Notes: generated by a model not told the origin, from the letters alone. A stretch of 30,900 nt of DNA from a virus (IMGVR_UViG_2617270950_000011), one strand, 5' to 3'; counted from the stretch's first letter, positions 1 to 17,354 are shown. Numbers and translations are program-made.

Positions 1-732
1 GTTCTCTGCTCCCAGCCTGATATCCTGGATATATCGGGAATCCGCATCCTGCTGTGTTATACCAGAAGTGATGTTTATGTCCTGCGTCCCGTCAAAGGGA
101 ACACCATTAATTGTGTGGGCATTTGCCAGCCTGTTCGCGGCAACGGCGGTGCCGTCCGATGGCAGGGCATTCGCCGCCCTGTTTACCGTTTCCCGTAAAC
201 CGACGTTATCGATAAAAGCCCCTTTATCCGGAATGTCTGCGCCGTTCTGCTCCCTGCGCAGGTAACGGTTATCACCTTCGCTTTTGCTGTAAACATCCAG
301 ATTATTACGGGCGGTTCCCTTATTCTCCAGGTCGGCGAGATTCTGATCCTTCGCCAGGGCATTAACGTCAGCGGGACCAAGACTGTTTTTTGTGGCAAGC
401 GTCCCCAGACCAAGATAACCACGGGCCAGACGCTGGGCCTCCGCACCGGCATCAGCAATTTCTTTCAGGTTATTTTTCCGGGAAAAGGCATTCGCAGCGA
501 TAATGGCTTTAATGGACAGCGTAAGCTGGTTTAACTGCGCCTTATCCGGCTGAATACTGGCTTCAGCCAGAATATTCAGCAGTTCGGCCTGGAGAATATT
601 CAGCCAGTCCTGACCAATCCAGCTGATACCTTTTTGTCCGTCACCTTCGGTAAACCAGGTGGTGGTATTACTCTGCGCCGGTGCCAGCGCAGGCATATTC
701 GCCACGCCGGAATTATTATCAACATGAAACAT
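1..732 (-). CDS. Tail fibre protein, N-terminal part (partial; gene continues beyond window start)
   Basis: ATG at 732-730 overlaps the upstream stop (TAATG). My translation stays open to position 1 ([35 protein letters not shown]...[45 protein letters not shown]). It is absent from the ORF track only because no stop lies in the window. Last gene of the baseplate string; LGLxETVNRA motif as in P2 H-type fibres (recalled). Confidence 0.55.
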
Positions 733-1292
733 TAAATAGTCTCCTCTTCATGGCTGTTTGCATAAACGTAAATAAACGTCTGCCATGCAGGCTTATAACG
801 GTTCAGAATACATTCCAGCGCACCGCCTTCATAAATACGCAGCGGCGTGAGAATATCATCCAGCACATTCATATTCCGGTAGCCGGTTTCACTGTTAATC
901 GTGACAATACTGACCCACTGCGAATCCGGTGAGGGCTGAATGTCAATCTGATAACCAAACTCCGCCGCAAACCGGATATAAAATTCACGGTTCAGCGAGG
1001 GCTTCATCCGGTATTTATTTCCGGCATAACGCTGTCGCTCCGTGAGGGTGGCTCCGGCCATATCACACTCGGGAAGCCCGAGATAACGCTCCCAGTCTTC
1101 CAGCAGCAGGCGCGACGTGTCAGGGAAACGCTCTGCAAGCAGCTGTTTACCCGTCCAGGATACACGCGCTGTCGAATGACTGAGGCCCAGACATAATGAT
1201 GCCAGTACGGATGACGGACGCTTGTCCCATGCCAGCCCGTCAGGCAGTAACTGCAACAGGGCGCGCTGATGCGGGGTCAGGGTTACAGCCAT
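732..1292 (-). CDS. Phage tail/baseplate protein, DUF2313 (Mu gp48 / YmfQ-like)
   Basis: 186-aa ORF ([25 protein letters not shown]...) immediately downstream of the baseplate J-like gene, with overlapping stop/start; family assignment from memory. Confidence 0.55.
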
Positions 1293-2365
1293 GTGATTTC
1301 TCCTACCGTCAGCAGCTCACTGTCTCCCGCCTGAACTGACGTCAGCGGACTGCGCACTTCAAAATCCTCCAGATTTTTCACCCCTGCCACCGCCCGCCAG
1401 AAAGACGACGGCAGAACCAGACCGCCGGGCCGGGATTCGTTATACAACAGGTCGGTCAGCGCCTGTTTTACGGCCGCCTGATTCTCCGGTGTTTTCGGGA
1501 TGATCCTGATGCTGAAGGGCACCGGCTTATTGGTCAGTTTAAACACGGTCACCGTCGGCCCCAGAGGCTGTCCGACAGGCTGGCCGGTCGCCGGATCATC
1601 ATGACTGCGGATATAATCCGCCACCCGCTGAACATCACCGTCACCGGGGAAAATATCCGGGTTATTATCCTGAACAAACGTTACCCCCACGCTGCCCGCC
1701 TGCGGCCATTCCGGGCGGCACCATGCCCGCGTCACGCCCGGCACTTCACGCGCCCAGCGTTCAAAATCATACTGCGTGCCGCCGGACGGTGGATTCTGCA
1801 CCCGGAAAACCAGACGGGAAAGCAGCTCCGGCACGGTTTCCACATCCGCACCACCGGTGATCCCCGTTCCGGTCACCGTGGCCGTCTGGTTGATCCCCGC
1901 CTGCGGTGTGATAAATGTCAGTTTTGTCCCTGCCGGGGCATTCCCCGCACGACCGGCACTTTCGGCTTCCACACTGACATTCAGCGTACCGGCCTTACCG
2001 GTCAGGGAGGTGGTGATACGGTAAACCACGCCATCACTTCGCTGGAGAAGCACACCTTCCTTGATCCCCGCATCCGTGGTCAGCATCAGCTGAACCGGCC
2101 CGTCCCCCCGAGAGGCAGGCTTACGCATGACGCCCCAGAATGCACAGTGTTTCAGCAGTTCGGCTTCATCGGCTTCGGTCGGGATGATCTGACGCGCAAT
2201 CCAGGCCAGATGCTCATGCTCCTGAGCAGATAACCCTGCCTGAGCGTAAGCAATGGCATTCAGGGTGGTTTCATTCACACCCGGCTGCGAGCCGGGCAGG
2301 CGCTGGCTGATATCCTGCTGTGTCTGCGTGATTAACTGTGCCAGCGGTAAAGGCTGATAAGGCAT
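1283..2365 (-). CDS. Baseplate J-like protein (Mu gp47 family)
   Basis: 360-aa ORF, position and size typical of the baseplate wedge J protein; ATGA overlap with the upstream gene. Confidence 0.6.
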   Translation of the reverse strand: MPYQPLPLAQLITQTQQDISQRLPGSQPGVNETTLNAIAYAQAGLSAQEHEHLAWIARQIIPTEADEAELLKHCAFWGVMRKPASRGDGPVQLMLTTDAGIKEGVLLQRSDGVVYRITTSLTGKAGTLNVSVEAESAGRAGNAPAGTKLTFITPQAGINQTATVTGTGITGGADVETVPELLSRLVFRVQNPPSGGTQYDFERWAREVPGVTRAWCRPEWPQAGSVGVTFVQDNNPDIFPGDGDVQRVADYIRSHDDPATGQPVGQPLGPTVTVFKLTNKPVPFSIRIIPKTPENQAAVKQALTDLLYNESRPGGLVLPSSFWRAVAGVKNLEDFEVRSPLTSVQAGDSELLTVGEITWL

Positions 2366-2802
2366 TACTCCCCCTTAAGATCAGCATAAAAAATCATGGG
2401 CCTCACTGAACCATCAGGCAGGGTTATGCGCACCGAAAGCGCCAGCCGCGCGTGTCCCACACGTTCTGCATGACAGACCACGGATGACGCCACGCCATCC
2501 TGACTGAGCCAGCCCAGCGCCTCATCCGCGTAAGCACGGGCACGGCTTATCACCGAGGCCAGCGTTTTTTCCCGGCTGAGAAGCCACAGACGGGAGCCAA
2601 TGGGGCGCGGGCGAAAACTGTCTCCCCACCATCCCCGGCGGTCGCGCGTACCGTCAGGGATTTCATCCGATGCCAGCGCCCGGCGGTCAGTAAACAGCGA
2701 AATCAGAACGGCCGTCAGCAGACTGTCATCCGTCAGCAGGTCGGCACCGTTCAGTTGCAGCGAACCGCATCCCTGATCCCACACAATTGCAATATCAGCC
2801 AT
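2365..2802 (-). CDS. Baseplate protein, gpW/gp25-like (Mu gp46-like)
   Basis: ORF track gives 2365..2946, but the internal ATG at 2802 (MADIAIVWDQ...) has a GGAGA ribosome-binding site and sits 3 nt upstream of the preceding gene's stop (ATGGCTGA), so the shorter 146-aa product is preferred. Confidence 0.5.
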   Translation of the reverse strand: MADIAIVWDQGCGSLQLNGADLLTDDSLLTAVLISLFTDRRALASDEIPDGTRDRRGWWGDSFRPRPIGSRLWLLSREKTLASVISRARAYADEALGWLSQDGVASSVVCHAERVGHARLALSVRITLPDGSVRPMIFYADLKGE

Positions 2803-3409
2803 TCTCCGGCACTCCTGTCTTACTGCCTTCGCCGTTATCATGATGCACATGGCCGGAATACCGTATCCCTGCAATAACGGCATCCGACATTGTGAACAGT
2901 CCCTGAGATTTCCCCGTACCCTCAAGCGCGAAATTACCCTTAACATGCAGGTTCTTATCCACCGTCACATTGCCCGTAAAGGTGGCTTCCGGCGTATCCA
3001 CCCGCATCCCCTCGTCGGCGTAAATCTCCAGCATTTTGCATGTCACAATAATGCGGCCATCCTTTGTTAACCGTATCCGGTGCCCCTCATGGTGATACAC
3101 CCCCGTATCTCCGGCTGTGAGTCCGGTCGGGCGGCTGCGCCGGTCTTCCACCACAAGCACCACAGTCTGATCCCGCTGTCCGCCCAGACAGGCAAAAAAG
3201 GTTTCCGCACCCGGCAGGGGAACGCTGATCTGCCCGTACTGCTGGGGACGCTCCACATCATCAAAGGTTTCGCCGTCCATGCCGGTGAGCTGCACATTCT
3301 GCATTTTCAGTTCGTCATGTGTGCCGGTCAGAACGCCCCGGCCAAACAACAGGCGAATACCGCGCGTTACCGGGGCAATCAGGCGGCTGAACACTTCATC
3401 ATTCATCAA
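2795..3409 (-). CDS. Baseplate assembly protein V / spike (Mu gp45-like)
   Basis: 204-aa ORF with gpV-like size and position between the gpP-like and gpW-like genes. Confidence 0.55.
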   Translation of the reverse strand: MMNDEVFSRLIAPVTRGIRLLFGRGVLTGTHDELKMQNVQLTGMDGETFDDVERPQQYGQISVPLPGAETFFACLGGQRDQTVVLVVEDRRSRPTGLTAGDTGVYHHEGHRIRLTKDGRIIVTCKMLEIYADEGMRVDTPEATFTGNVTVDKNLHVKGNFALEGTGKSQGLFTMSDAVIAGIRYSGHVHHDNGEGSKTGVPENG

Positions 3410-3427
3410 AGCTGATCCCCTGTTTTT

Positions 3428-4522
3428 TCATCTGCTGGCGAATAAAGGCATCAACATCGTCACCGGAACCCCCCGGCCCTTACTGTCCGGCTCTGCCGGA
3501 ACGATAAAGCCGTCACGCGGTGCCAGTACCAGCCGGGTGACTTCCCCGTTATGCTCATCAAGTAAAAACTCCACCTGACAGACCAGCAGTTCAGTCTGTT
3601 CTATACCGAAACGCAGGGCTGAAACACCGGTCAGCAGATTGACATCCCATAACCGGCCATCATCCCGGAACCAGCCACGCACGGTGGCAGAAAACCGTTC
3701 TGAACGGGCAATCGCACGGCGCATTTCACGCAGGGCACGCTGCCGTGCACCGGTGATGTCTGTCTGTTGATCGGCGAGGATGATTTTCGGCCGGTAGCGG
3801 CCGATCTGCTCATCACTGATGACGCCCACAGGTGCTGCCAGACGGGCGGCGGATTCGCTGTCTCCCCGTTTGCCACCACCGCGCCCGTGTCCCCGGACAC
3901 GGTATTCGCTGTATCGTCCTCGCCAGTCCGTGTTGTAATCGGCATCAAGCAGGTTATCTCCCAGCACCAGTCTGTCCGTCTGCTGGCTTCCTGCCTGGGT
4001 GAACACCAGATCGCCGTCAGCATTACTGGTCACCAGCACCCCGCGATGCCGGGCAGCACGGGTCAGCGCATCCGCCACGGTTTCTGAGTTTTCCAGCGTA
4101 AAAGAGCTGAAGGGGCGTGCAGCCGTGTCGTCGTTAACCTGCCAGCGCACGGCTATCCCGAAGGGCGCACATAAATCTGCGGCAATCTGTGCCAGCGTCC
4201 GGTTGCGCCACTGGCTGCCGGGATGGATGGCGGCACAGTCCACCAGGTCGCCGGTTTTATCCCGACCGCTGATGCTGATCTGATGACGGGTTGCACTGAT
4301 CCGCTGACTGACCTGATCCAGCCAGCCACTGATGACCGTCTGCCCGTTAATTCTGAGCGTCAGGGACTGACCGGTCCGCAGGGCTGAGGGGATGCGCTCA
4401 CCGGGCAGCATCAGCCCCAGTTCAAACGACCCGGCCAGATGCTCCAGCGAGCGACGGACGCTGACCGTCAGCCAGCCGGAAAAAATACTGCCGCCGATAT
4501 ACAGTTCAATCCTGCTGCTCAC
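3428..4522 (-). CDS. Tail protein, Mu gpP / P2 gpD family
   Basis: 364-aa ORF following the gpN-like gene; size and position as Mu P. Confidence 0.55.
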   Translation of the reverse strand: MSSRIELYIGGSIFSGWLTVSVRRSLEHLAGSFELGLMLPGERIPSALRTGQSLTLRINGQTVISGWLDQVSQRISATRHQISISGRDKTGDLVDCAAIHPGSQWRNRTLAQIAADLCAPFGIAVRWQVNDDTAARPFSSFTLENSETVADALTRAARHRGVLVTSNADGDLVFTQAGSQQTDRLVLGDNLLDADYNTDWRGRYSEYRVRGHGRGGGKRGDSESAARLAAPVGVISDEQIGRYRPKIILADQQTDITGARQRALREMRRAIARSERFSATVRGWFRDDGRLWDVNLLTGVSALRFGIEQTELLVCQVEFLLDEHNGEVTRLVLAPRDGFIVPAEPDSKGRGVPVTMLMPLFASR

Positions 4523-5864
4523 TGATCACCTCCACGCGGCGGCCACCCGGAACAAAAACCGGATCGGGGATATTGTTTCTGCGGACAAAATACTGCCAGC
4601 GGCGGCTGTTACCGGTGGCACGGTACAGCGTGACCAGTGCCGGTTCGGTGGTTCGCACCATGACCTGAAAAGCACCGGGAAGATGCACGCTCCGCGTGGT
4701 TAAATCTTCTGTCAGCGCAAGCCCTGCATCACGTAATGCAAGGGCGGTGCCGGTATGGCCCTGTGCGGACAGATCCAGCACCTGTTGTTCCATGGCATCG
4801 CTCAAATCCCGGTTGATACGCTGCACATCAGCAGAACTTTCCAGCCAGGCCAGTCCGCCCGCACGGTCAGTATCCTGAACGTGCGTCGTATTCTGCCGGA
4901 TGACCTGATCCAGCAGTTTTCCGACCGTCTGCGCCTGCGACACCAGGGCTGCACTCTGCATGACGCTCCGCAGCAGACGGATATTGTTCTGTGCCGCAGG
5001 CGTCAGACCAATCAGGCGCTGCGGATCATCCTGTTCGCTGAGGGTGTAACGCAGGGAAGAAAGTGTGCGGTACAGCTGCGGCATGGCCTGCTCTGTCGTG
5101 CTGTCACGGTTTGTGGTCAGGCTGCCGGACGGCGTTCCGGCTTTTCCGGTCAGCGACAGGGAAGGATCGCCGGGCAGCCCCGCCAGCACGGCAAACATTC
5201 CGGCCAGCGATTCAGCCATGCGACGGGGCGCATTAATCAGGGCGGCGGCATTCCCTTTCAGGGCAGTAAAACTGGCCGTAAAGGCACTGATATCCTGCAC
5301 AATCCCCATCCCTGAAACGGCATTCTCCAGCGCATCAATTTTATCGCTGATGGTGTCGGTCATGGCCTGTACATCATGCAGACCGTCTGAAATCACCGTC
5401 CAGCCGTCTGAAAGTGTGTTAAACAGCTGATTCATTGCTGAGCCGCTTTTCTGCTCCAGCGCAGCTGCCGTATCTTCTGCCACCGAAGGGGCGGTATCGT
5501 CACTGGCGGGGATCACGTTGATCGTGAACTCAACCGTTCCCTGCTCGTTGGCGTTATAACGGCTTTCAAAGCTGTTTATCAGCACGTTTAACGTGCCGTA
5601 ATCCGGGTGCATCAGTTCACCGGCACCGGGTGCACGCAGCGCATCACGCAGGCGGCTTCGCTGTGTCTGAAGATCGTCTCCGGTCACTAGAACCGTGAAT
5701 GTGAACTCCGGGAGTTTTGGCCCCAGATCATCCGCACCGCCGCTTTCACGCAGTGGGTATTCACGGCGCACAATGTTACGTCCGCCCCGTTCCCGCTGCT
5801 CCTGATAAACCAGGAACGGTACGCCACGAAAGGAGCCACGCCCCGGCGTGTCAGTAGAGGCCAT
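4506..5864 (-). CDS. Mu gpN-like tail/DNA circularisation protein
   Basis: 452-aa ORF directly downstream of the tape measure gene with overlapping boundaries. Confidence 0.5.
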   Translation of the reverse strand: MASTDTPGRGSFRGVPFLVYQEQRERGGRNIVRREYPLRESGGADDLGPKLPEFTFTVLVTGDDLQTQRSRLRDALRAPGAGELMHPDYGTLNVLINSFESRYNANEQGTVEFTINVIPASDDTAPSVAEDTAAALEQKSGSAMNQLFNTLSDGWTVISDGLHDVQAMTDTISDKIDALENAVSGMGIVQDISAFTASFTALKGNAAALINAPRRMAESLAGMFAVLAGLPGDPSLSLTGKAGTPSGSLTTNRDSTTEQAMPQLYRTLSSLRYTLSEQDDPQRLIGLTPAAQNNIRLLRSVMQSAALVSQAQTVGKLLDQVIRQNTTHVQDTDRAGGLAWLESSADVQRINRDLSDAMEQQVLDLSAQGHTGTALALRDAGLALTEDLTTRSVHLPGAFQVMVRTTEPALVTLYRATGNSRRWQYFVRRNNIPDPVFVPGGRRVEVISEQQD

Positions 5865-7908
5865 AGTTCCCTCCGTTCCAGACGTTCACATCCAGGCCAT
5901 GCTGTGCGGTATCATCCACATCAATACTGCGCGCCCGCCAGCCTTCAGGGGCCACAAGCTCCACCCGTGCGGCGGTTTTCGCGGTGGCCTGTCCGCCGTT
6001 TTCGTCACTGCTGCCACGCAGTTTCTGCCAGGCCTGCGTCAGCCAGCCCCCCAGATAATCACCGAGATAGCTGCCCACCGTGGAACCAATGGCAACCCCG
6101 ACCGGACCGGCAGCCGCCCCCAGCGCGCCACCGGCGATACTTCCGGCAAGAGAACCCACGGCACCGGCTTTATCGGCTGCACTGGCGCTGCTGTCCAGCA
6201 GTACAGGAGCCGCCATGGCACCGGCCCACAGGGCACCACCACCCAGCCGACCGGCACCACGGAACAGCCCGGCAAAACGCCCCAGCCCCATGCGGTTTCC
6301 GGCCGCCGTTAGCAGACCACCGGCACGGCTCATCATACGACCGAAGAAGCCCTGTTTACCGGCACTCTCCGCCAGTTGCTCACCGGCAGTCACGACGGTC
6401 GTGACACCCCGTCCACGTCCGGGGCCGCGTTTTTTACGGCCGCGCACGGTTTTGCCGTCACCGCTGACCACCACATCCCCGCCACCTGAGGCCAGGCCAC
6501 CCGCAGGCCAGTTGGTGACCAGCACGGGCTGAACGGCAGCCGGATTTACCCCGGTAAGGAAATTCAGGAACCGGCCAGCGCGTCCGGGCTGCGTTCCCGG
6601 TACAGTGGTCTGCGGTTTGCGGAAGGGCGACGTCAGCACGGAGGTCATCGCCATGCCATAGCGTAAGGGGGTTGCGCCGAGACGTAATGCCCCCGTCCCT
6701 GCAAACCTGAGCACCTTCAGCGCACGGGAGGCGAGATACATATACATCAGGTACTTTGCGGCGGTCTGCGCACCCTGACCAATACGATCCAGCGCATCGC
6801 CATAACCGGCGTCGCGCAGTGCCTGAAGCGTTTCCCTGACTTTCTGAATGGCCCGGTAAAAGCCGGTCGCAGCATCTCTGGCATACTCAAATCCCTGATT
6901 CAGAGCTGAGGCCGTCTGTGTGGCCAGCTTATCCTGTAAGCCGCTTTTCTGTGCCGCATCGGCATAATCCAGGAAGCCTTTCAGGCTCTTTTTCAGGCTG
7001 TCAAACGGTCCCTTTGCCATCACCTCGCGGGCAAATCCGTCCCAGACGTCGCCCATCATGGACGTCATTCCCGTCCAGGAATTCATGGCGTTTTTCTGGG
7101 CACCTTTTGCCTGTTCGGCCATCACCTGAAATAACAGGCGAATGCTGTCCGGCCCCAGTTTTCCTTTTTCGCCTTTCTCACGGATGATCTTCTGGTTTAC
7201 GCCCAGCTTATCGGCCAGTAACTGGTAAACGTTAATCCCGTATCCGGTCAGAATATTGGCGTCCGCTGCCTGGATACTCTGGCGGGCAAACATCTGTTTG
7301 AGTTGCAGGGACGCACCCTGTGCATCTGACAGTGACCAGCCGTGATAGCCGCCCTGATCCTGAAGCATGGTAATAAAGCGACGGGCTTCCCTGTCACTCA
7401 TACCGAACCCGCGACTGGAGGCGTATTCCTGCATAACCCCCGCCAGCCCCCAGGTGGTGTCTTTGGCGTTCTGTACCGCCCAGGCTTTCACTGCTTCCGT
7501 TTTTGCCGTATCGCCATGATTAATGGCGTTGAGACGCAGAATATAGTTCTCCATCTCTGCGGCCGGGCGGATAAAGGCTTTATTAAACCCGTAGACCGCA
7601 GCCCCTCCCGCCAGCATCCCGTAAAGGTTGCTTATCCGCCCGATGGTGCCGGTAATGCTGCCCTGAAGGCGGTCAAAATCTGACGTCACCGTGCGGATAC
7701 TGCCACGAACACCGGCAAGCGTTCGCTGCATACGGGAGCCGACAAGTTCTGTCTCCTGACCGGCACGACGTGCTGCATTTCCAAGACCACCCAGCCCCGT
7801 CCTGCCGGAACGGGAGAATGCCCCCAGCTCCTGTGACCACTGGCGGGATTTGGCAGAAATATTGCCGAGTAAATCGACAATCAGGGAGGCTTTCAGGTTT
7901 TTTGCCAT
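5851..7908 (-). CDS. Tail tape measure protein
   Basis: 685-aa Gly/Ala-rich ORF in the canonical position between the tube/chaperone genes and the baseplate genes. Confidence 0.7.
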   Translation of the reverse strand: MAKNLKASLIVDLLGNISAKSRQWSQELGAFSRSGRTGLGGLGNAARRAGQETELVGSRMQRTLAGVRGSIRTVTSDFDRLQGSITGTIGRISNLYGMLAGGAAVYGFNKAFIRPAAEMENYILRLNAINHGDTAKTEAVKAWAVQNAKDTTWGLAGVMQEYASSRGFGMSDREARRFITMLQDQGGYHGWSLSDAQGASLQLKQMFARQSIQAADANILTGYGINVYQLLADKLGVNQKIIREKGEKGKLGPDSIRLLFQVMAEQAKGAQKNAMNSWTGMTSMMGDVWDGFAREVMAKGPFDSLKKSLKGFLDYADAAQKSGLQDKLATQTASALNQGFEYARDAATGFYRAIQKVRETLQALRDAGYGDALDRIGQGAQTAAKYLMYMYLASRALKVLRFAGTGALRLGATPLRYGMAMTSVLTSPFRKPQTTVPGTQPGRAGRFLNFLTGVNPAAVQPVLVTNWPAGGLASGGGDVVVSGDGKTVRGRKKRGPGRGRGVTTVVTAGEQLAESAGKQGFFGRMMSRAGGLLTAAGNRMGLGRFAGLFRGAGRLGGGALWAGAMAAPVLLDSSASAADKAGAVGSLAGSIAGGALGAAAGPVGVAIGSTVGSYLGDYLGGWLTQAWQKLRGSSDENGGQATAKTAARVELVAPEGWRARSIDVDDTAQHGLDVNVWNGGNYGLY

Positions 7909-8035
7909 GGGTTACTGCTTCGTTCTGAGAATTTTTTCGGTCTGTCGGCAGTGCCGGTAAAGCTGCGATAAGGGGAGGTTAAGCGCCCACTCCGGGCCGC
8001 TTTTTGTCACCATCCCCAGCACAATTGCGGCTTCT

Positions 8036-8512
8036 TCAATCTGATCCCGGCACTGCATCTGGTCGCCCCCGTTCAGCGACCAGCTTTCCGGCCATCGCGG
8101 AATCAAGCAGGCTTACTGCCGCCATCAGTCGGGAGAGATCGCGCTCGCTGAGCTGTCCTATCTGACGCGGAGACAATGGCCCCTCAATCTGGCCGACAGC
8201 GGCAATCTGACGGCGCAGCAGCGCAATGCCGCGCAGTGCCGGTGAGGCCACAAGAACCGGACCGTTTCGGGTTTCCATAAGACGCTCGGCCTCGCTCTCC
8301 GCATCAATGCTGTCTTTTGCCGTCAGTTCGCGGAAGGTGACGCGGTATTCACGGGATTCCCCGAACGGCAGACCGTCGAGCAGATCCACATAGCCGTTCG
8401 CCAGTTGTTCAGCCAGCCCGGCGGTGCGGGGATCGCCGTCTTCAAGTGCATCCCGGATAGCCTCCATCACGGCCTCGTCAGAAACCGCCGTTTTTTTCTT
8501 ACGTGTGCTCAT
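8036..8512 (-). CDS. Putative tail assembly chaperone
   Basis: 158-aa acidic ORF between tail tube and tape measure, the position chaperones occupy in contractile-tail phages. A 64-aa ORF in the +1 frame (7912..8106) bridges to the tape measure start. Confidence 0.4.
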   Translation of the reverse strand: MSTRKKKTAVSDEAVMEAIRDALEDGDPRTAGLAEQLANGYVDLLDGLPFGESREYRVTFRELTAKDSIDAESEAERLMETRNGPVLVASPALRGIALLRRQIAAVGQIEGPLSPRQIGQLSERDLSRLMAAVSLLDSAMAGKLVAERGRPDAVPGSD

Positions 8513-8526
8513 TACATTTTTCCTGA

Positions 8527-8892
8527 TTACTGGACACGGGTACTGGTGGCGCTGGCGAACTTCGCGGAGATATCACCACCACCGTCAAGCGAGGCCGGTT
8601 CACTGCTCCAGGCCTTCGTCATCATGTGGACTTCACCGGTATCGGCCACGAACTCAATCGTGACCGCAGTCCAGGTGTTGATTTCATCGGCAGCCGGTGA
8701 ACCTTCTCCGCCAGCCGGAAATTTACAGTCCAGCGTCGCCTCACGGGGTTTCTCGCGATAGCCGTAAACTTTCGCGCCTTTCACCACTTCACGCTCAAAG
8801 CCGGACGGGGAGAACGTGGCCCCCTCAAGGGTGTCGTACTCCTGCCCGTTCACACGGATGGTGGCCGTGCCCTGATACTGTTTTCCGCTCAT
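8527..8892 (-). CDS. Tail tube protein
   Basis: 121-aa ORF immediately downstream of the sheath gene. Confidence 0.6.
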   Translation of the reverse strand: MSGKQYQGTATIRVNGQEYDTLEGATFSPSGFEREVVKGAKVYGYREKPREATLDCKFPAGGEGSPAADEINTWTAVTIEFVADTGEVHMMTKAWSSEPASLDGGGDISAKFASATSTRVQ

Positions 8893-8900
8893 GCCTTACC

Positions 8901-10403
8901 TCACAAAATGAAACGGATCTGCGCGGCCATGAAGCGGAACTGGTTAACCAGATCCGGTGTACACATCACATCCAGACGGTTACGGTCTTTTGTGTTGCGC
9001 TCCACGAGCAGATTCTTTTTAAAGGTGTCCAGATTTTCGACCAGTCCCAGATCCACCCATTCTTCCCCCAGCGAAATTAACTGAAGTTTCATGATCTCCG
9101 GTGTCACGATATTCTGACCGGCACGAACGGGCGTCCCGTCATCAGCCAGTTTATGGCGCGGAAAACGCTGCGTGATAAAGGTGCGCAGGGAATAACGCAG
9201 ATATGACAGGGTGTAGATGGTTTCCACATCCAGATAGCTGGGATCGATTTCGCCGTATGCATTCTGACGGTACATCGTCACCTGACGTTCAATCTGCACC
9301 ACATCCGCGGCCGCGACGGTCACCGTGGACATGCCGGTATAAAGCAGGCTGTTTCGCTCTTCCCGCGTCAGACGATCCGGTGCTTCAGGTGCCATACGGG
9401 CAGGCAGCGCCAGTGTCTGTAATGGTCGGGCCGGATCCGTTGACAGGGAGGGCGCACAGACCGCACAAATGGAGGCAGCCCAGACATAATCCGGCTCTGG
9501 TGCTTTAGGAATAGAAGTGCAGGTAAACAGGAAGTCATTACGGGATTCACCAAAACTGGTTGCCGTACCGAAGGTGCCGGTATGCGCCATCCAGACCATA
9601 CCGTCCGACATTTTTACCGGTCCCCAGCGTTTCAGCAGTTCATCCGCCAGAATTTTGAGATTTGCCGCATCCTTATAGGGCATGACGATGTAGTTGTACT
9701 GACGATTCCCCATCCCTGAGACGCTACGGGTGATATCGGGGTTTGTTGCCTTCTGTGTTGGCGCGACGAGCTCCAGCGTAAGACCGGCCGGTGTAGTTTC
9801 ACCGTCATAATAGTTCACCCGTAAATCATGAGCTGAGCATTCACCGATAAAGCGGGCGTTAACCCCCATGCTGCCTTTAAGTCCTTCAGCATTATCACCA
9901 CTGACTTCAGCTGCGATAGCAGTGAATGGCGCATCAGTGTCAGCGTTAATGACCTTAGCCAGCTCTTCCACAAGCTCTTTACCTTTTTTCCCCTTACTGA
10001 CGGGCAGGAGGTAACGGCGACCGCCGATGTAAACACTTAACACCCCGTCTGCCAATGCTGTTCCAATGATATTCATCACGCATGCCCTGGACTGACCTGT
10101 TCCAGCCCCCTGTGCAATGGCATATAACTCTGTGTCAGGGTTAATGGCGATAAATTCCTCTACCATCAGTGCAATCATGGAACCTCGCCCCCAGAGTTCT
10201 CTTGCTTGTGAAGCTCGGGTAATACGTACTGGTACATCAAGCTGACCGCGCCCCTGAATGGTAGTGTCTTTCATTGCAGCCTGACCAAACAACAGTACCG
10301 CCTGACGCTGTGGTGGAGTGCCGGTCACGGCCATTGAATTATTGATTTCAATCTGTACCAGCGGAATGCGATTGTTATCGCCGATATAATCAAAGTTAAT
10401 CAT
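8901..10403 (-). CDS. Contractile tail sheath protein (Mu gpL-like)
   Basis: 500-aa ORF; C-terminus ...DVMCTPDLVNQFRFMAAQIRFIL resembles sheath C-termini; followed by tube, chaperone and tape measure. Confidence 0.75.
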   Translation of the reverse strand: MINFDYIGDNNRIPLVQIEINNSMAVTGTPPQRQAVLLFGQAAMKDTTIQGRGQLDVPVRITRASQARELWGRGSMIALMVEEFIAINPDTELYAIAQGAGTGQSRACVMNIIGTALADGVLSVYIGGRRYLLPVSKGKKGKELVEELAKVINADTDAPFTAIAAEVSGDNAEGLKGSMGVNARFIGECSAHDLRVNYYDGETTPAGLTLELVAPTQKATNPDITRSVSGMGNRQYNYIVMPYKDAANLKILADELLKRWGPVKMSDGMVWMAHTGTFGTATSFGESRNDFLFTCTSIPKAPEPDYVWAASICAVCAPSLSTDPARPLQTLALPARMAPEAPDRLTREERNSLLYTGMSTVTVAAADVVQIERQVTMYRQNAYGEIDPSYLDVETIYTLSYLRYSLRTFITQRFPRHKLADDGTPVRAGQNIVTPEIMKLQLISLGEEWVDLGLVENLDTFKKNLLVERNTKDRNRLDVMCTPDLVNQFRFMAAQIRFIL

Positions 10404-10681
10404 CAGGACGTCCCCTTATCTGATGCTGCGGTTTTTTCAGCCACCGCCGCAGTTTTTTCTGCTACCGCTCCCGCTGGTTTTGCCGCCGCGCCGGTATTAG
10501 CAGTTGTGGCAGCCGGGGCAGGCTCCGCCGTTTTATCCACCACAATGACGTCGCCATCATTAAGACGGCGGCACCAGAACGGAGTGAAGGGTTTCTCTTC
10601 CCCGTCCTGAGAGAGCGGAGTCATCGTGTCGGGATCGCGGATCAGGCATCCCGGCGCAGGTTTAATAAAAATGGTTGTCAT
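10403..10681 (-). CDS. Hypothetical phage protein (Mu gp38-like position)
   Basis: 92-aa ORF with an Ala/Thr-rich C-terminus, ATGA-coupled to the sheath gene. Confidence 0.4.
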   Translation of the reverse strand: MTTIFIKPAPGCLIRDPDTMTPLSQDGEEKPFTPFWCRRLNDGDVIVVDKTAEPAPAATTANTGAAAKPAGAVAEKTAAVAEKTAASDKGTS

Positions 10682-10684
10682 CTG

Positions 10685-11248
10685 TTATTCCTCTGACAGT
10701 CCGGCGTTTTCACCGGCGGCAGTTGCACCAGGCAGACGGATGTGTGCCTTAAATTCCGGCGTGCCTTCCGGTTCGGTAAAGGTTTCGTAATGGCGCAGGA
10801 AATCATCCAGCGAGCTGATATCCGTCAGCGGGTCGATCATTTCCTCGCATGAGAAATACAGGGCGTACATCACGGCACCGCTGCCTGCCTGCGTTTCGGT
10901 GTAACCGTTGACCGCCTTTTCAAAGTAAAGCGGTGAGGTTTTTTCTGCTCTGAAGCCGTCCAGCACGGTAATCAGGCGGGCCACAATCTGATAAAGCCCG
11001 GGACGGCTGACCTCACGGCCATTGAGCATGTCGCCGATGACGTAGAACACCCAGTGACTGACCAGACGCCCACGGGTACGCCCTTCACCGGCACCCAGCC
11101 AGGCAACATAGATAGCCGGGGCGTTAATCAGCATGGTGCGCAGTACGCTGTCGCTCCAGTCGCCGGGATGTGTGTCAACAGACACCAGTTCATTCCCGAA
11201 ATACTCACGGATACGGGCGATGTACGCCTGCTCGGTTTCCGTAATCAT
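10685..11248 (-). CDS. Phage morphogenesis protein (Mu gp37-like, DUF1834-type)
   Basis: 187-aa ORF (MITETEQAYIARIREYFGNELVSVDTHPGDW...) upstream of the sheath; family assignment from memory. Confidence 0.45.
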   Translation of the reverse strand: MITETEQAYIARIREYFGNELVSVDTHPGDWSDSVLRTMLINAPAIYVAWLGAGEGRTRGRLVSHWVFYVIGDMLNGREVSRPGLYQIVARLITVLDGFRAEKTSPLYFEKAVNGYTETQAGSGAVMYALYFSCEEMIDPLTDISSLDDFLRHYETFTEPEGTPEFKAHIRLPGATAAGENAGLSEE

Positions 11249-11372
11249 ATAAAGCCCTTCTGGTTGCGCCCGAACACCGCCGCATCAGACTGCACCTGCG
11301 GTAAATCCCCGGATTCAGGGGCCGCACCGTCTGTATCCACGCCGACCGGCACGTTACCGTTCATGACATCTT

Positions 11373-12518
11373 TCAGCCAGGCCAGCGCCTCACGGTATCC
11401 GAGTAATACAGAAACGGTTTGCCATGATGGCGAATACCGTGCTGTATGGCACCGGCTACGGCGAAAACATTTTCAGCCAGGTCAAGGCTCCAGCCCACCA
11501 CAAAGCGCGTGCCACCGTCGATAACAAAGGTCACTTCCGGTGCGAATGGCCGCCCGTGAACCGGGTGCGCGCATTTCAGCTTCATGCCGTGACCGTCACC
11601 AATCCAGACATAATTCACCGGCATTTTTGACCAGTCGCGGCGCGTGAATCCCTCAAGCTGGCGGTATTCACTGCCGGTAACCCGTCCTTTTTGTTTCACC
11701 ACTTCCGGCAGTTTCTTCATTGCGCGGCGAATGGTGTCATAAGACGGCATGATATCGAGCATATAAGGCTCATCAGCGTGCCGGTGCTGCCATTCGGCAA
11801 CAAAATCCTCGTAAGCCTCGGTCATTGGTCGGCCGTTTGACTGGCGATACTGCGCCAGAAATTCGGGCAACCAGTTAATATCTTCGGCTTTTATTTCCTG
11901 GCGTTTACCTGGTGCCAGCAAAAGCAGGCGTTCAGCAGCGTTCTGTGCCTTATTAAAGGCCGCAATCCAGCGTTTCAGCGTGATTTCACTCAACACGCGA
12001 CTGTTTCCCTTTCTGGCGTTCGCTATCTCAACCATTGCCACAATGCGCTCATCCAGTTGCGAGTGTGACAGGCGGTCAACGATGAACCAGATAGCTTTAG
12101 CGCAGCTGAAACCGGGTTGTTGCGTGAATTTCAGCACCTCACTGACGATCGCAATGCGTGCGTCTGCCACCTGGCGCTGGTTTTCAGTCAGGGCATTGAG
12201 GCGTTCGACCATCAGTTGTGGTGATCCGCGATATGCCTCCACCGCATCAACCACGGCAGACGAGCGTCTGGCCTTTGTCACCACCGGAGCCGGTGATTCA
12301 TCGGCTTTTTGCGTCATCAGTTGCAGGGCATAACGTTCGCGTAATGCCTGCTGTGTCACTTCAGGTAAACAGTCAATGCTGTATTCAAAACCTTTAGCGC
12401 CTTTCTTGCGGCGTCTGCTGGTTTCGCTGGTTGCATACTTCCTGATTGAATAGCGAACGCCTTGCTCCGTTCCCGGCATCCCCGGTAATCCAACCAGTTC
12501 TTTGACTGAAGCAAACAT
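11373..12518 (-). pseudogene. Mu-type DDE transposase (MuA-like), C-terminally truncated after the second catalytic Asp
   Basis: 381 aa. N-terminus has the Mu winged-helix end-binding pattern (SVKELVGLPGMPGTEQGVRYSI...GAKGFEYSIDCLP); WIGDGHGMKL and ...YYSDTVRRWPG* match the first two DDE aspartate regions of MuA (recalled). The catalytic Glu and C-terminal domains are missing, and the next gene is gp37-like, not B. Confidence 0.75.
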
Positions 12519-12520
12519 AA

Positions 12521-12751
12521 TTACGCGACCTTACGAATGTAGCGGCTGGGCCAAATCTCCTCGGGCGGCACCCCCAGGCATTCCGCGATAATCCCCTCAT
12601 ACTTGGGAACATGGCGGTATACCGCGTTGTACAGATTGTTCTGACCCACGCCAGCTTTACGGGCCAGCGCCCTCATGCTTCCTTCTCTGGCTCTGACTTC
12701 CCCCAAAATTCTTTGAGGATGCCAATCAGGCTTAACTTCATTTCTCGCCAT
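12521..12751 (-). CDS. ner: Ner-like DNA-binding regulator
   Basis: 76 aa; ...WHPQRILGEVRAR...ALARKAGVGQNNLYNAV...PEEIWPSRYI matches the Mu Ner/Nlp pattern (recalled); sits immediately upstream of the transposase on the same strand. Confidence 0.75.
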   Translation of the reverse strand: MARNEVKPDWHPQRILGEVRAREGSMRALARKAGVGQNNLYNAVYRHVPKYEGIIAECLGVPPEEIWPSRYIRKVA

Positions 12752-12780
12752 GATTCATCTATCCTAAAAAGTTACGAAAT

Positions 12781-12804
12781 TTGATAACTAAACTTAGTTA
12801 TCAA
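12781..12804. promoter_or_regulatory. Operator-like 24-bp palindrome in the divergent ner/repressor control region
   Basis: TTGATAACTAA-AC-TTAGTTATCAA: 11-bp perfect inverted arms, with further TTGATA half-sites just upstream (~12779) and downstream (~12806); lies between the divergent Ner-like and repressor genes. Confidence 0.5.
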
Positions 12805-12935
12805 GTTTGATATAAGTATTGATCCACTTCTGCTTCATGTAAAGCAAAAAAACATCTTTCTTTTGTCTATTGTGGATCAATGGTTGCTGACAACACTAAA
12901 AGTTAATAATTTCAAATTGATAGGAAGAAAAGAAA

Positions 12936-13481
12936 ATGAACAAGCAAACAACAACATCTCTTTCTTTTCCTGGTGGTAGAAAAGAAAGCATTGCTGAGCG
13001 TCTGAAAAGGCTGATTGGCTCCCGCAGCGTCAGAGCTGCAGCAAGAGATTGGGGGCTTTCATTTTCAACACTAAACAATTATCTGTCTCGTGGCACTGAG
13101 CCATCCTTAAGTGTCGCCCTTCAGATTGCGTCTATCGAAGGAGTAAGTGTTGAGTGGCTATGTGGATTCAGTGATGCATCACAAGTGAATCGGTGCGAGA
13201 TCAAAGAAAATCAAGATGAAAGCAAGAAGATAATTATGACGATTATCAGCGCACTTGATGAAAAAGACTTAGAGCAGCTATCGAAAAATTTGGTTCTGAA
13301 TGGAGCCAAGTACTTAGCTCGGTTGTTAGAGCCTGAAAATCAAGATCTAATCCGCTTAGAAGGAAGGAAAAGAATAGCTGCATTACAGCTTGAAGGTATG
13401 TCTGACGAACGCGTCAGAGAGATTTTGGAAGAAACTGAGAGAAGTCGCAAATCTAACGCGGTAGAACCAAAAGCGGGTTAA
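12936..13481 (+). CDS. Phage repressor with CI-type N-terminal HTH (Phage_CI_repr-like)
   Basis: 181 aa; ...ERLKRLIGSRSVRAAARDWGLSFSTLNNYLSRGTEPSLSVALQIASIEGVSVEWLCG is a CI-type helix-turn-helix; divergent from ner across the operator palindrome. Confidence 0.7.
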   Translation: MNKQTTTSLSFPGGRKESIAERLKRLIGSRSVRAAARDWGLSFSTLNNYLSRGTEPSLSVALQIASIEGVSVEWLCGFSDASQVNRCEIKENQDESKKIIMTIISALDEKDLEQLSKNLVLNGAKYLARLLEPENQDLIRLEGRKRIAALQLEGMSDERVREILEETERSRKSNAVEPKAG

Positions 13482-13555
13482 TAGCATTAGCCCGCATTTT
13501 GCACTATATCGAGTATTTCGCATTGTTTGGAACGCCTTAAAAGACTAAAACCACA

Positions 13556-13711
13556 GTATCAAATGAGTTGCCGATTTTATAATAAATGACTAATTATTGC
13601 ACAATCGGTATCAAATAGACCTTATCCGCACATCTAGCCATCACCTGTTTTATTTCAGTATCTTACAGGTGATTTCACCTCCTTTCACTAAAACCCTTGT
13701 CGGTATCAAAT
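13556..13711 (+). repeat. Three direct copies of GTATCAAAT plus a 9-bp inverted repeat at the repressor/gene A junction
   Basis: GTATCAAAT at 13556-13564, 13608-13616 and 13703-13711; inverted repeat ATCACCTGT / ACAGGTGAT at 13640-13648 and 13665-13673; TTATCCGCA (DnaA-box-like) at 13622-13630. Function unknown. Confidence 0.4.
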
Positions 13712-15715
13712 GATTCACCTGGTTATATTAACGAGGCCGCCGCAGCATTCTCATGGAACAGCCCGAAAAAGGCTATTAACCCTTATCTGGACCCGGCGGA
13801 AGTTGCGCCGGTTTCTGCGCTTTCAAACCTGATCACTCTGTACGCTGCCGATAACGAGCAGGAACAACTGCGCCGCGAGGCACTGAGTGATCAGGTTTGG
13901 GAGCGTTATTTCTTTAATGAATCCCGTGATCCTGTCCAGCGCGAAATGGAGCAGGATAAGTTCATTAGCCGGGCAAAGTTGGCGCATGAGCAGCAGCGTT
14001 TTAACCCGGACATGGTCATTCTGGCAGACGTTAACGCCCAGCCTTCCCATATCAGCAGGCCGCTGATGCAACGTATTGAATACTTCAGCAGCCTTGGTAG
14101 GCCAAAGGCTTATTCCCGCTATTTACGTGAGACGATTAAGCCATGTCTGGAACGGCTGGAGCATGTACGCGACAGTCAGCTATCCACTTCTTTTCGCTTT
14201 ATGGCAAGCCATGAAGGGCTGGACGGCCTGCTGATTCTGCCTGAAATGAGTCAGGATCAGGTGAAACGCCTGTCCACCCTTGTTGCTGCGCATATGAGCA
14301 TGTGCCTTGATGCAGCTTGTGGCGATTTGTATGCCACCGATGACGTTAAGCCAGAAGAAATCCGCAAGACATGGGAAAAGGTGGCAGCAGAAACCCTGCG
14401 ACTGGATGTCATACCGCCTGCGTTTGAGCAACTCCGCCGGAAAAGAAACCGCCGTAAACCCGTGCCCTATGAACTCATTCCGGGTTCGCTGGCGCGTATG
14501 TTGTGCGCCGATTGGTGGTACCGGAAATTATGGAAGATGCGTTGCGAATGGCGGGAAGAGCAGTTGCGTGCTGTTTGCCTGGTCAGCAAAAAAGCATCTC
14601 CCTATGTCAGCTATGAAGCCATGATGCATAAACGTGAGCAGCGCCGTAAGTCGCTGGAGTTTTTCCGTTCTCATGAACTGGTGAACGAAGACGGCGACAC
14701 GCTGGACATGGAGGATGTGGTAAACGCCAGCAGCAGCAACCCTGCGCATCGCCGCAATGAGATGATGGCCTGTGTTAAAGGTCTGGAGCTTATCGCGGAA
14801 ATGCGCGGTGACTGCGCCGTTTTCTACACCATCACCTGTCCGTCACGTTTCCATTCCACGCTAAATAACGGCAGGCCCAACGCTGAATACGTTAATGCCT
14901 GGGCGTCTCTGCATCGTGTTCAGCAATTCCGCTTCTTTGGCATTCCGGGGCGTCAGGCTTACCGTGAACTGCGATTGCTGGCTGGTCAGGCGGCAAGGCA
15001 ACAGGGGGACAAAAAAGCAGGTGCGCCGGTACTGGATAACCCGCGCCTTGATGCAATCCTGGCTGCTGCTGATGCTGGTTGTTTTGCCACCTACATCATG
15101 AAGCAGGGCGGCGTACTGGTTCCCCGCAAATATCACCTCATCAGAACTGCTTATGAAATCAACGAAGAACCGACCGCATATGGCGATCACGGTATTCGTA
15201 TTTATGGCATCTGGTCACCCATTGCAGAGGGCAAGATCTGCACTCATGCGGTGAAGTGGAAAATGGTTCGTAAGGCCGTTGACGTTCAGGAGGCGGCAGC
15301 CGACCAGGGCGCTTGCGCCCCTTGGACTCGTGGCAATAACTGTCCCCTTGCTGAAAATTTGAACCAACAAGGGAAAGACAAATCAGCTGATGGGGATACC
15401 AGGACGGACATTACCTGCATGGATGACAAGGAGTTGCACGATTACCTGCACAGTATGAGCAAAAAAGAGCGCCGGGAACTGGCTGCAAGGTTACGCCTGG
15501 TGAAACCGAAACGGCGTAAAGACTACAAACAGCGAATTACAGACCATCAGCGACAGCAGCTCGTCTATGAACTGAAGTCCAGAGGATTTAATGGCAGCGA
15601 GAAAGAGGTCGATTTACTCCTTCGCGGCGGCAGTATTCCGTCAGGAGCAGGCCTGCGTATCTTCTATCGGAACCAGCGTTTGCAGGAAGATGATAAGTGG
15701 CGAAACCTGTATTAA
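13697..15715 (+). CDS. P2 gene A-family replication initiator homologue, apparently missing the HUH/Tyr catalytic core
   Basis: 672-aa ORF from a TTG start (true start uncertain). [23 protein letters not shown] and [27 protein letters not shown] resemble recalled P2 A segments, but no HxH or YxxxY motif occurs anywhere in the ORF. Confidence 0.7.
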
Positions 15716-15807
15716 TTACGCGGGTTAACAATTCGTGCTCTTAATAATACCAGGCATATCAGGCTGATGAACGTAAAAAAACGTTTTACATCAGTAAGAT
15801 TATTATA

Positions 15808-15827
15808 TACTGTAAATATAAACAGTG
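15808..15827 (+). promoter_or_regulatory. LexA (SOS) box
   Basis: TACTGTAAATATAAACAGTG fits CTGT-N8-ACAG with an AT-rich spacer; about 40 bp upstream of the small ORF and DinI-like gene; a second half-site (TGTATACAGTA) follows at ~15832. Confidence 0.7.
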
Positions 15828-15868
15828 GTTATGTATACAGTATTGCTTGTGGTGTCATAGGAGGAAAG

Positions 15869-16057: not shown

Positions 16058-16067
16058 GGTGACTTTT

Positions 16068-16301: not shown

Positions 16302-16309
16302 GAAACCTT

Positions 16310-16737: not shown

Positions 16738-16768
16738 TAGACTTACGAATTTGAAAGGATGAGTTGAA

Positions 16769-17350: not shown

Positions 17351-17354
17351 TTCT

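What the first reader, a model, noticed from the sequence alone, without database searches (positions are those of the whole stretch)
11249..12518. Transposase truncated just after the second DDE aspartate; deletion junction to the late genes
The MuA-like ORF keeps the N-terminal end-binding domain and the first two catalytic aspartate regions, then stops (...YYSDTVRRWPG*) before the catalytic glutamate and the C-terminal domains. The next gene, 124 bp away, is a late morphogenesis gene. This marks a large internal deletion, so the element should be immobile.
Basis: partly seen in the sequence, partly recalled or inferred. Interest (0 to 1): 0.35.

Follow-up and report, generated by a model that had tools for sequence, protein, structure and literature searches.

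The report
Deletion scar in Mu-like prophage transposase
A Mu-type prophage in E. coli lost about 18 kb, which cut its transposase gene right after the second catalytic aspartate and left it unable to move on its own; at least eight other independent deletions in related prophages break at exactly the same base.

Summary
ORF 11373..12518 (-) encodes 381 aa. Residues 1-374 are the N-terminal 374 aa of a 695-aa Mu-family transposase, with one substitution against an intact E. coli relative. The last 7 aa come from reading out of frame into the final 50 codons of a Mu gp36-like gene. About 18-19 kb are missing: the transposase C-terminal half, B, the early region, mor, lysis, terminase, portal, protease and capsid genes.

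The same junction occurs in at least four isolate assemblies and in a metagenome assembly, so it is not an assembly artefact. No transposase family ends at this position. Of the 150 best representatives, 120 align through residue 372 or beyond, and a median of 343 residues follow.

The element is non-autonomous, not proven immobile, because helper proteins could move it if its right end is intact. The right end lies outside the window.

New lead: the transposase-side breakpoint is not random. Nine independent deletions in three phage groups all break at the same TA in ..TAYTCGGA[TA]AYGG.. . They join it to nine different partner sites, and all eight partners with a known parental sequence also carry a TA at the joint. 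What causes this hot spot is unresolved.

The parts
11373..12518 (-). Truncated transposase ORF (381 aa). Codons 1-374 are transposase; codons 375-381 (TVRRWPG) and the stop are out-of-frame gp36-like sequence.
11396..11397 (.). Deletion junction: a TA dinucleotide present in both parental sequences. On the coding strand the product reads ..TCGGA[TA]CCGTGAGG.., the intact transposase reads ..TCGGA[TA]ATGGCTCC.., and the gp36 donor reads ..ACCGT[TA]CCGTGAGG..
11245..11397 (-). Remnant of the Mu gp36-like gene: its last 50 codons plus the stop. It overlaps the start of the next gene, as in intact relatives.
10685..11248 (-). First intact late gene after the junction (Mu gp37 / DUF1834 family, 187 aa).
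1..10681 (-). Retained tail module: DUF2635, sheath, tube, gp41-like, tape measure, DNA circularisation protein, baseplate gp44/45/46/47/48-like genes and the start of the tail fibre. Proteins are 97.8-100% identical to strain HH35, except for a 1-nt deletion near 3470-3479 in the gp44-like gene.
12521..12751 (-). ner-like early regulator (76 aa, PF13693). Its stop lies 2 nt before the transposase start codon.
12815..12843 (-). Sigma-70-like promoter upstream of ner, a candidate early promoter. It is a consensus match only.
12936..13481 (+). c-type immunity repressor (181 aa, HTH_3 / Phage_CI_repr). It lies inside the 2,332-nt block that is 99.87% identical to strain S1-CAM-01-A.
13600..13727 (-). 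Left end of the prophage. Read inward it is 5'-TATAACCAGGTGAATCATTTGATACC.., with repeated TTTGATACC motifs. The element ends at 13727.
13728..15715 (+). P2-like replication gene A, into which the Mu-like prophage inserted at about codon 12. The empty site is seen in E. coli E423.

Best explanation
Window 11249-12518 is the scar of an 18-19 kb internal deletion in a Mu-family transposable prophage. The prophage sits inside gene A of a decayed P2-like prophage in E. coli. The deletion joined codon 374 of the 695-codon transposase gene, which is the GAT codon of the second catalytic aspartate, to codon 90 of the gp36-like gene. The join is at a shared TA and is out of frame.

Shown: the element retains its left end, the c repressor, ner, the DNA-binding half of the transposase and the tail module. 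It lacks the catalytic glutamate, the C-terminal transposase domains, B, the early region, mor, lysis, terminase, portal, protease and capsid genes.

Inferred: it cannot transpose, replicate, lyse or form particles on its own, and it no longer kills its host on induction. It probably still confers repressor immunity. The allele is inherited vertically in a natural E. coli lineage.

Shown: the transposase-side breakpoint is a hot spot. Nine independent deletions in three phage groups start at this same TA and end at different places 8-35 kb to the right. One of them ends in the host gene lsrC. Every partner with a known parental sequence has a TA at the joint, and the 5 nt upstream of that TA resemble TCGGA more than chance predicts.

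Inferred, with low confidence: a strand break or replication arrest recurs right at ..CGGATA|A.. . The 3' end that results is joined downstream by short-homology (TA-anchored) illegitimate recombination. One candidate for the break is the phage's own transposase, because the real ends of these phages also finish in ..ATA-3' or ..ACA-3'.
For: The deletion is placed to the base against intact relatives. Domain content and DDE positions come, and the gp36 remnant.

The same junction is in an NCBI isolate contig and an ENA metagenome contig. The two differ elsewhere by a 1-nt indel. The exact 381-aa protein is deposited from four isolate assemblies.

No natural short family exists.

The hot spot is supported by fusion proteins that break after YSD, by DNA junctions and parental donors, and by statistics. 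TA is present in 8 of 8 partners, against a chance expectation of (1/16)^8. Upstream matches are 19 of 40 (p=0.0017) and downstream matches 13 of 39 (not significant).

Real phage ends begin 5'-TATAACC, 5'-TGTAACC, 5'-TATGACT and 5'-TATAGCG.
Against: Nothing argues against the deletion itself. The hot-spot lead has several weaknesses.

All nine alleles come from draft, short-read or metagenome assemblies. The three alleles tested are absent from 5,426 complete E. coli genomes, although 248 of those genomes carry the transposase family.

The cases were found partly through a protein search that favours proteins retaining residues 1-374.

Three points argue against a transposase-made break. The three phage groups have different end-binding repeats. 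No well-placed binding repeat lies next to the hot spot. The upstream-pentamer N-Y-S-R-N signal (6 of 8) is confounded with plain similarity to TCGGA, and the real target duplications of this phage group mostly do not fit N-Y-S-R-N.

An ordinary second deletion in L020 shows the same '2 nt plus imperfect upstream repeat' junction style. The joint chemistry therefore looks like generic short-homology joining.
Confidence: 0.9

Rival explanations
1. The 381-aa protein is a natural short member or isoform of the family, for example a DNA-binding regulator that normally ends here, and not a truncation.
For: It keeps a complete HTH_Tnp_Mu_1 region, and the identical protein is deposited from several isolates.
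Against: The DNA after codon 374 is the 3' end of a gp36-like gene read out of frame. Relatives continue for a median of 343 residues beyond this point, and none stops within 10 residues of it. Intact 695-aa versions that are 99% identical exist.
Confidence: 0.01
2. The junction is an assembly or sequencing artefact.
For: The window starts about one base from a contig end. None of 5,426 complete genomes has the junction.
Against: The identical junction is present in an NCBI isolate assembly and in an independent ENA metagenome assembly that differs elsewhere by an indel. The protein is deposited from four isolate assemblies. The parental sequences share only 2 nt at the joint, far less than any assembler overlap.
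Confidence: 0.02
3. This is a one-off random illegitimate deletion, and the coincidence with the other truncated genes is due to selection or search bias, not to a site-specific process.
For: The joint looks like ordinary short-homology joining, as does the second deletion in L020. The search query ended at residue 374. Other disruptions of the gene also exist at other positions (P0084, P0117 and frameshifts).
Against: Nine different partner sites are joined to the same nucleotide in phages whose transposases are only 45-46% identical at the protein level. Two of the nine were found by a DNA pattern scan that did not depend on the protein search. Selection on the protein cannot fix a breakpoint to the base, nor require a TA in the partner.
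Confidence: 0.05
4. The deletion was made by the phage transposase itself. A cryptic end (..CGGATA-3') inside gene A is nicked. It is then either paired with the true left end for an intramolecular replicative transposition (a classical adjacent deletion) or converted into a one-ended break.
For: The pattern is one fixed end and one variable end, always keeping the left-end side, and in one case running past the right end into host lsrC. Real ends of these phages finish in ATA-3' or ACA-3'. The pentamer before the TA fits the Mu target pattern N-Y-S-R-N at the hot spot and at 6 of 8 partners.
Against: A strand transfer does not need a TA in the target, yet 8 of 8 partners have one. The 5 nt after the joint fit N-Y-S-R-N in only 2 of 8 cases. 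There is no end-binding repeat in register next to the hot spot. Three phage groups with different binding repeats share the site.
Confidence: 0.2
5. The remnant is kept because it is useful. It could serve as a repressor-controlled tail module (tailocin-like) or as an immunity cassette with a dominant-negative transposase fragment.
For: The repressor, ner and all tail genes are retained. No terminator-like site was found between the early promoter and the tail genes. Tail proteins are 97.8-100% identical to intact relatives.
Against: The high identity (99.2-99.9% DNA) shows the deletion is recent, so intact ORFs say nothing about selection. The lysis genes and the late activator gene mor are deleted. 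The gp44-like baseplate gene carries a frameshift in this lineage. Other hot-spot deletions keep quite different gene sets.
Confidence: 0.04

Closest known systems
Bacteriophage Mu transposase MuA (AAF01083.1, 663 aa) and the Mu early region c-ner-A-B
   Same: The gene order c (divergent), ner, A is the same. The N-terminal Mu DNA-binding domain is present (PF02316). D308 and D374 align with MuA D269 and D336.
   Different: Identity to MuA is only 26%. The intact relative is 695 aa, and Pfam sees a weak rve-type core in it, not DDE_2. Here the glutamate, domain II-beta (Mu-transpos_C) and domain III are deleted, and B is absent.
Intact Mu-like prophages of E. coli (strains S1-CAM-01-A, HH35, JE86-ST05; also the Mu-like prophage family of O157:H7 genomes)
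   Same: They are 98-99.9% identical on both sides of the junction, with the same ends and the same gene order.
   Different: They carry the 18-19 kb that is missing here, and they sit at other chromosomal sites.
Laboratory mini-Mu / Mud elements (internal-deletion derivatives moved by helper A and B; own knowledge, see also PMC3145075)
   Same: Both are Mu genomes with internal deletions that keep the left end and the immunity region and cannot transpose without functions supplied in trans.
   Different: This one is natural. It retains a complete tail module, its right end could not be checked, and no helper is known in the source strain.
Transposon- or Mu-mediated adjacent deletions (intramolecular replicative transposition; own knowledge)
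   Same: One endpoint is fixed and the other variable, and the element side is always retained.
   Different: In the classical cases the fixed endpoint is a true transposon end and no homology is needed at the target. Here the fixed endpoint lies inside the transposase gene, and every partner carries a TA.
Illegitimate-recombination hot spots at nick sites of rolling-circle origins (M13, pC194; Michel and Ehrlich 1986; recalled from memory, not retrieved here)
   Same: One deletion endpoint is fixed to the base. Partner endpoints are variable and share a few nucleotides just 5' of the joint.
   Different: No rolling-circle initiator or origin is known at this site. A recalled P2 gene-A nick motif was searched for in the resident P2-like gene A and not found.

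Membership tests
Mu-family DDE transposase (functional member) | N-terminal Mu end/enhancer DNA-binding domain | tested here: met
   PF02316 HTH_Tnp_Mu_1, E=5.5e-9, residues 6-140.
Mu-family DDE transposase (functional member) | Complete D, D, E catalytic triad | tested here: not met
   D308 and D374 are present. The glutamate (E414 of the 695-aa relative, MuA E392) lies in the deleted part.
Mu-family DDE transposase (functional member) | C-terminal beta-barrel domain (Mu-transpos_C) and the domain III tail | tested here: not met
   PF09299 hits residues 532-592 of the intact relative. The window ORF ends at residue 381.
Mu-like transposable prophage (complete, autonomous) | Immunity and early region in the order c / ner / A / B | tested here: not met
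   c, ner and the first 374 codons of A are present. B (an AAA ATPase in the intact relative) is deleted.
Mu-like transposable prophage (complete, autonomous) | Two ends with repeated transposase-binding motifs and a short target duplication | tested here: inconclusive
   The left end at 13727 carries TTTGATACC repeats and is identical to those of relatives. The right end and the target duplication lie beyond window position 1.
Mu-like transposable prophage (complete, autonomous) | Head, packaging and lysis genes | tested here: not met
   L001 positions 755-20000 are absent. They hold the rest of gp36, capsid, protease, portal, terminase, lysis, mor and the early genes.
Phage-tail-like bacteriocin (tailocin) | Complete tail and baseplate gene set with its own regulator and lysis cassette | tested here: not met
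   Tail genes are present. The lysis genes are deleted, and the gp44-like baseplate gene is frameshifted.
Serine-invertase (Gin/Cin) quasi-site recombination | A 2-bp crossover core flanked by 12-bp half-sites that resemble gix | tested here: not met
   A TA core is shared by all sites. By my own inspection the flanks of the hot spot match the recalled gix half-site consensus at only about 2 of 12 positions. The partner sites are also not gix sites.

The most novel reading that the evidence does not exclude
Enterobacterial Mu-like prophages carry, inside the codon for the second catalytic aspartate of their own transposase, a site (..TCGGA|TA|AYGG..) where an enzyme makes a specific strand break. 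The enzyme could be the transposase acting on a cryptic end, or a host or co-resident nickase. The break repeatedly produces rightward deletions. This would be a built-in, recurrent route by which these prophages are disarmed and natural mini-Mu-like remnants are made.
Probability: 0.25. Interest if true: 0.7.

Novelty: new variant of a known kind. Interest (0 to 1): 0.5.

Why it matters
Taken alone, the scar is ordinary prophage decay: an internal deletion that removes the killing functions of a Mu-type prophage. What deserves attention is that nine independent lineages and three phage groups lost DNA starting from the same nucleotide.

If a defined break or replication arrest underlies this, it would explain how transposable prophages are repeatedly neutralised in enterobacterial genomes. 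It would predict which remnants arise, including gene fusions such as transposase-Mor or transposase-LsrC. It would also provide an experimentally tractable hot spot for studying short-homology end joining or template switching in E. coli. For annotation, 'Mu DNA-binding domain protein' entries of about 375-580 aa that end or change after ..YSD should be read as deletion fusions.

Tried and rejected
1. A natural short transposase family was rejected by the representative search.

2. An assembly artefact was rejected because independent assemblies share the junction.

3. IS-mediated deletion was rejected. No IS sequence is at the joint. The ISKpn26 copy in strain S1-CAM-01-A is specific to that strain.

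4. A Gin-type quasi-site was rejected. Inspection of the flanks showed no gix-like half-sites.

5. A nick by the P2 gene-A protein was not supported. The recalled motif (GCGCCTCGGAGTCCTGTCAA / CTCGGA) is absent from the resident P2-like gene A. The recollection itself is unverified.

6. A DNA hairpin as the cause was not supported. A weak stem, CTCGGA/TCCGGG, places the TA at the start of its loop in one variant. The fold is not better than shuffles (z = -1.0 and -1.3), and the stem is not conserved in other variants.

7. A transposase-binding repeat beside the hot spot was looked for, and none lies in register.

8. The Mu target pattern N-Y-S-R-N is enriched upstream of the TA. However, the real target duplications of this phage group mostly do not fit it, so the signal may be plain similarity to TCGGA.

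9. Further alleles were sought. Scans of metagenome contigs and genome contigs gave nothing relevant.

10. Reciprocal junctions that keep the C-terminal half were not found in IMG/VR for two sequence variants.

11. The window, L007 and L014 alleles were not found in complete E. coli genomes.

12. More distant Mu-like families do not show the hot spot.

13. Four literature searches found no description of this hot spot.

Full report
THE OBSERVATION. The - strand ORF 11373..12518 encodes 381 aa ending ...GKPFLYYSDTVRRWPG*. Pfam finds the Mu DNA-binding domain in it (PF02316, residues 6-140). Its neighbours are a ner-like gene (12521..12751, -), a c-type repressor (12936..13481, +), and downstream a Mu gp37-like gene (10685..11248, -), DUF2635 and a tail sheath. 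The description is accurate at the stated coordinates.

PLACING THE BREAKPOINT. Megablast of 10600-13600 against 5,426 complete E. coli genomes found 248 genomes with related prophages. In every one of them the alignment to the transposase side starts at window 11393-11396, and none spans the junction.

The best relative is a prophage in strain S1-CAM-01-A, inserted in bcsA. It has a 695-aa transposase followed by an AAA ATPase (B), early genes, gam, mor, lysis genes, terminase, portal, protease, capsid, gp36-like and gp37-like genes. Pairwise BLAST gives window 10644-11397 = L001 1-754 (99.2%) and window 11396-13727 = L001 20001-22332 (99.87%). So 19,246 bp of that relative are missing, including its private ISKpn26 copy. 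Strain HH35 gives about 18.6 kb.

On the coding strand the intact gene reads ..TAC TCG GAT AAT GGC.. (Y S D N G) and the window reads ..TAC TCG GAT ACC GTG AGG... The gp36-like donor reads ..ACCGTTACCGTGAGG... The joint is therefore a shared TA.

The stretch 11245-11397 is the last 50 codons and the stop of the gp36-like gene (98% identity by tblastn; PF07030 on the intact gene). It is entered one base out of frame, which explains TVRRWPG*.

WHAT IS LOST FROM THE PROTEIN. In the three-way alignment with the intact relative and MuA, D308 aligns with MuA D269 and D374 with MuA D336. The relative continues DNGSGET...GRGIIERLN. This segment carries the glutamate (E414). The Mu-transpos_C domain follows at residues 532-592. 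The window protein has neither.

IS IT REAL, AND IS IT A NATURAL SHORT FORM? The exact 381-aa sequence is encoded on seven contigs. These include NCBI GCA_000711515.1 and an ENA metagenome assembly, both with the same neighbours. Both carry the 40-nt junction string, yet they differ by a 1-nt indel in a baseplate gene. The protein is deposited from four isolate assemblies.

A full HMMER scan of 1.84 billion cluster representatives gave 923 hits. Of the best 150, 120 align through query residue 372 or beyond, and 113 alignments end at residue 374-375. In those 120, a median of 343 residues follow. None stops within 10 residues of that point.

SURROUNDINGS AND CONSEQUENCES. The prophage's left end is at 13727. 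From 13728 the window matches, at 100%, a P2-like remnant near ybjL in E. coli E423. That strain shows the uninterrupted replication gene A. The Mu-like phage therefore inserted at about codon 12 of that gene.

The tail module (1-10681) matches HH35 protein by protein at 97.8-100%. The exception is a 1-nt deletion that frameshifts the last 24 or so codons of the gp44-like baseplate gene.

A promoter-like site lies upstream of ner. No terminator-like site was found on the - strand between ner and the tail genes. By inference, the element cannot transpose, replicate, lyse or package by itself. Repressor immunity is probably retained. Mobilisation in trans cannot be excluded, because the right end lies beyond the window, which starts about one base from a contig end.

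AN UNEXPECTED REGULARITY. Among the homologues of the 381-aa protein were fusion proteins that switch to unrelated sequence right after ..YSD:
- P0002 switches to Mor.
- P0001 switches to a DUF6645 protein.
- P0021 switches to a DUF2730 protein.
- P0022 switches to the host permease LsrC.
- P0109 switches to the tape measure protein, and P0113 to the sheath. Both belong to a phage whose transposase is only 45-46% identical.

I fetched their contigs and read the junctions. A DNA-pattern scan of IMG/VR added two more. L020 joins to the protease gene and L041 to the tape measure gene. The same scan returned 21 intact copies.

All nine junctions read ..TAYTCGGATA followed by nine different sequences. 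For eight of them I recovered the parental partner sequence from intact relatives or from the host gene. Every partner has a TA exactly at the joint. The shared stretch is TA in four cases, and TAA, TAAT, GGATA and CGGATAA in the other four. The chance expectation for TA in all eight is (1/16)^8.

The 5 nt upstream of the partner TA match TCGGA at 19 of 40 positions (p=0.0017). The 5 nt downstream match at 13 of 39 (not significant).

The left-end side is always the side retained. The distal end lies 8-35 kb to the right. In L013 it lies 545 bp beyond the prophage, in host lsrC.

Other large rearrangements of the gene at other positions are few (P0084 and P0117). More distant Mu-like families continue ..DNG.. 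normally, and two of them break 6-10 residues upstream instead. A Salmonella contig ends exactly at ..TCGGATAA. That is suggestive but was not counted.

WHAT COULD CAUSE IT. The joints look like ordinary short-homology illegitimate recombination. An unrelated second deletion in L020 has the same style, a TG joint plus an imperfect CACCGG repeat. What needs explaining is the fixed end.

A recurrent strand break or replication arrest at ..CGGATA|A.., followed by pairing of the terminal TA downstream, fits three features: the absolute TA requirement, the upstream-biased similarity and the polarity.

The phage transposase is a candidate nickase. The real ends of these phages finish in ATA-3' or ACA-3', since read inward they begin 5'-TATAACC, TGTAACC, TATGACT and TATAGCG. 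The pentamer before the TA fits the Mu target pattern at the hot spot and at 6 of 8 partners.

Several points argue against the transposase. No end-binding repeat lies in register next to the site. Three phage groups with different binding repeats share the site. A strand transfer would not require a TA in the target. The real target duplications seen here mostly do not fit N-Y-S-R-N.

Other ideas found no support. These were Gin-type quasi-sites, a P2 gene-A nick and a conserved hairpin. I leave the cause open.

CAVEATS ON THE HOT SPOT.
- All nine alleles come from draft or metagenome assemblies.
- The three alleles tested are absent from complete E. coli genomes, where every one of 248 carrier genomes has at least one copy intact across the site.
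- Seven of the nine cases came from a protein search whose query ended at residue 374.
- Reciprocal junctions were not found in IMG/VR, but only two sequence variants were tried.
- Four literature searches found no prior description.

VERDICT. The finding is a genuine, recent 18-19 kb deletion scar that disarms a Mu-like prophage. As such it is ordinary. The recurrent, base-precise, TA-anchored breakpoint inside the catalytic-aspartate codon is a new and testable lead. It raises the interest to moderate.

Noticed in passing
window 13690-13760; L002 3963-4033: The Mu-like prophage is inserted inside replication gene A of a P2-like prophage remnant, at about codon 12. It is a prophage nested within a prophage. 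E. coli E423 shows the empty site at 100% identity.
   Followed up: partly
window 14879-14881 (L002 5155-5544 absent): The same P2-like gene A also has a 390-bp in-frame deletion (130 codons, 3-nt overlap at the joint) relative to E423. The Pfam match to Phage_GPA stops at profile position 212 of 321.
   Followed up: partly
window 3470-3479: A 1-nt deletion (GGGGTGG to GGGGGG) frameshifts the last 24 or so codons of the gp44-like baseplate gene. It is present in the window and in the NCBI contig L004. It is absent from HH35 and from the metagenome contig L005, which has the same 18-kb deletion. It is either later decay or a homopolymer sequencing error.
   Followed up: partly
window 16769-18326 and 18943-20766: The P2-like remnant carries a DarT ADP-ribosyltransferase with a macro-domain partner (a DarTG-type pair) and an AIPR abortive-infection protein. 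This comes from the Pfam labels and the RefSeq annotation of E423.
   Followed up: no
window 21375-22604: This stretch is not shared with E423, which has 553 different bases there. In the related contig it encodes terminase-like and portal fragments, so the P2-like remnant has decayed differently in the two strains.
   Followed up: no
window 13726-13727; L011 4722; L007 4600; L013 6795: The outermost dinucleotide of the left end is 5'-TA in the window, S1-CAM-01-A, HH35 and the L013 phage, but 5'-TG in L007 and L011. The right end is 5'-TA. In HH35 and L011 the flanking duplication appears to be 4 bp (CGTA, CTAA) and not the 5 bp expected for Mu.
   Followed up: partly
L012 5960-7495: In this metagenome contig the transposase-sheath fusion segment is also inverted relative to ner and the tail genes. 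The inversion joints lie at transposase codon 13/14 and 36 codons before the sheath stop, with 0 and 4 nt of homology. It may be a real second rearrangement or a misassembly.
   Followed up: partly
L020 5935-5945: This IMG/VR contig has a second internal deletion, from the sheath gene to the gp44-like gene. The joint is a TG preceded by an imperfect CACCGG repeat.
   Followed up: yes
L013 6740-9740: A hot-spot deletion fused the transposase N-terminal half in frame to host LsrC and removed 545 bp of the lsr operon (the 3' end of lsrA and the 5' end of lsrC). It probably inactivates autoinducer-2 uptake in that strain.
   Followed up: partly
L001 4178-4257: RefSeq annotates a 'tRNA-OTHER' feature between the head morphogenesis genes of the intact prophage in strain S1-CAM-01-A. 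It lies in the region deleted from the window.
   Followed up: no
output: The 90%-identity cluster that holds the 381-aa protein has a sialate O-acetylesterase / DUF6645 fragment as its representative. Most of its 387 members are of that kind, so the cluster is chained or mixed. This may explain why the intact 695-aa transposase did not appear in the word-indexed search.
   Followed up: no
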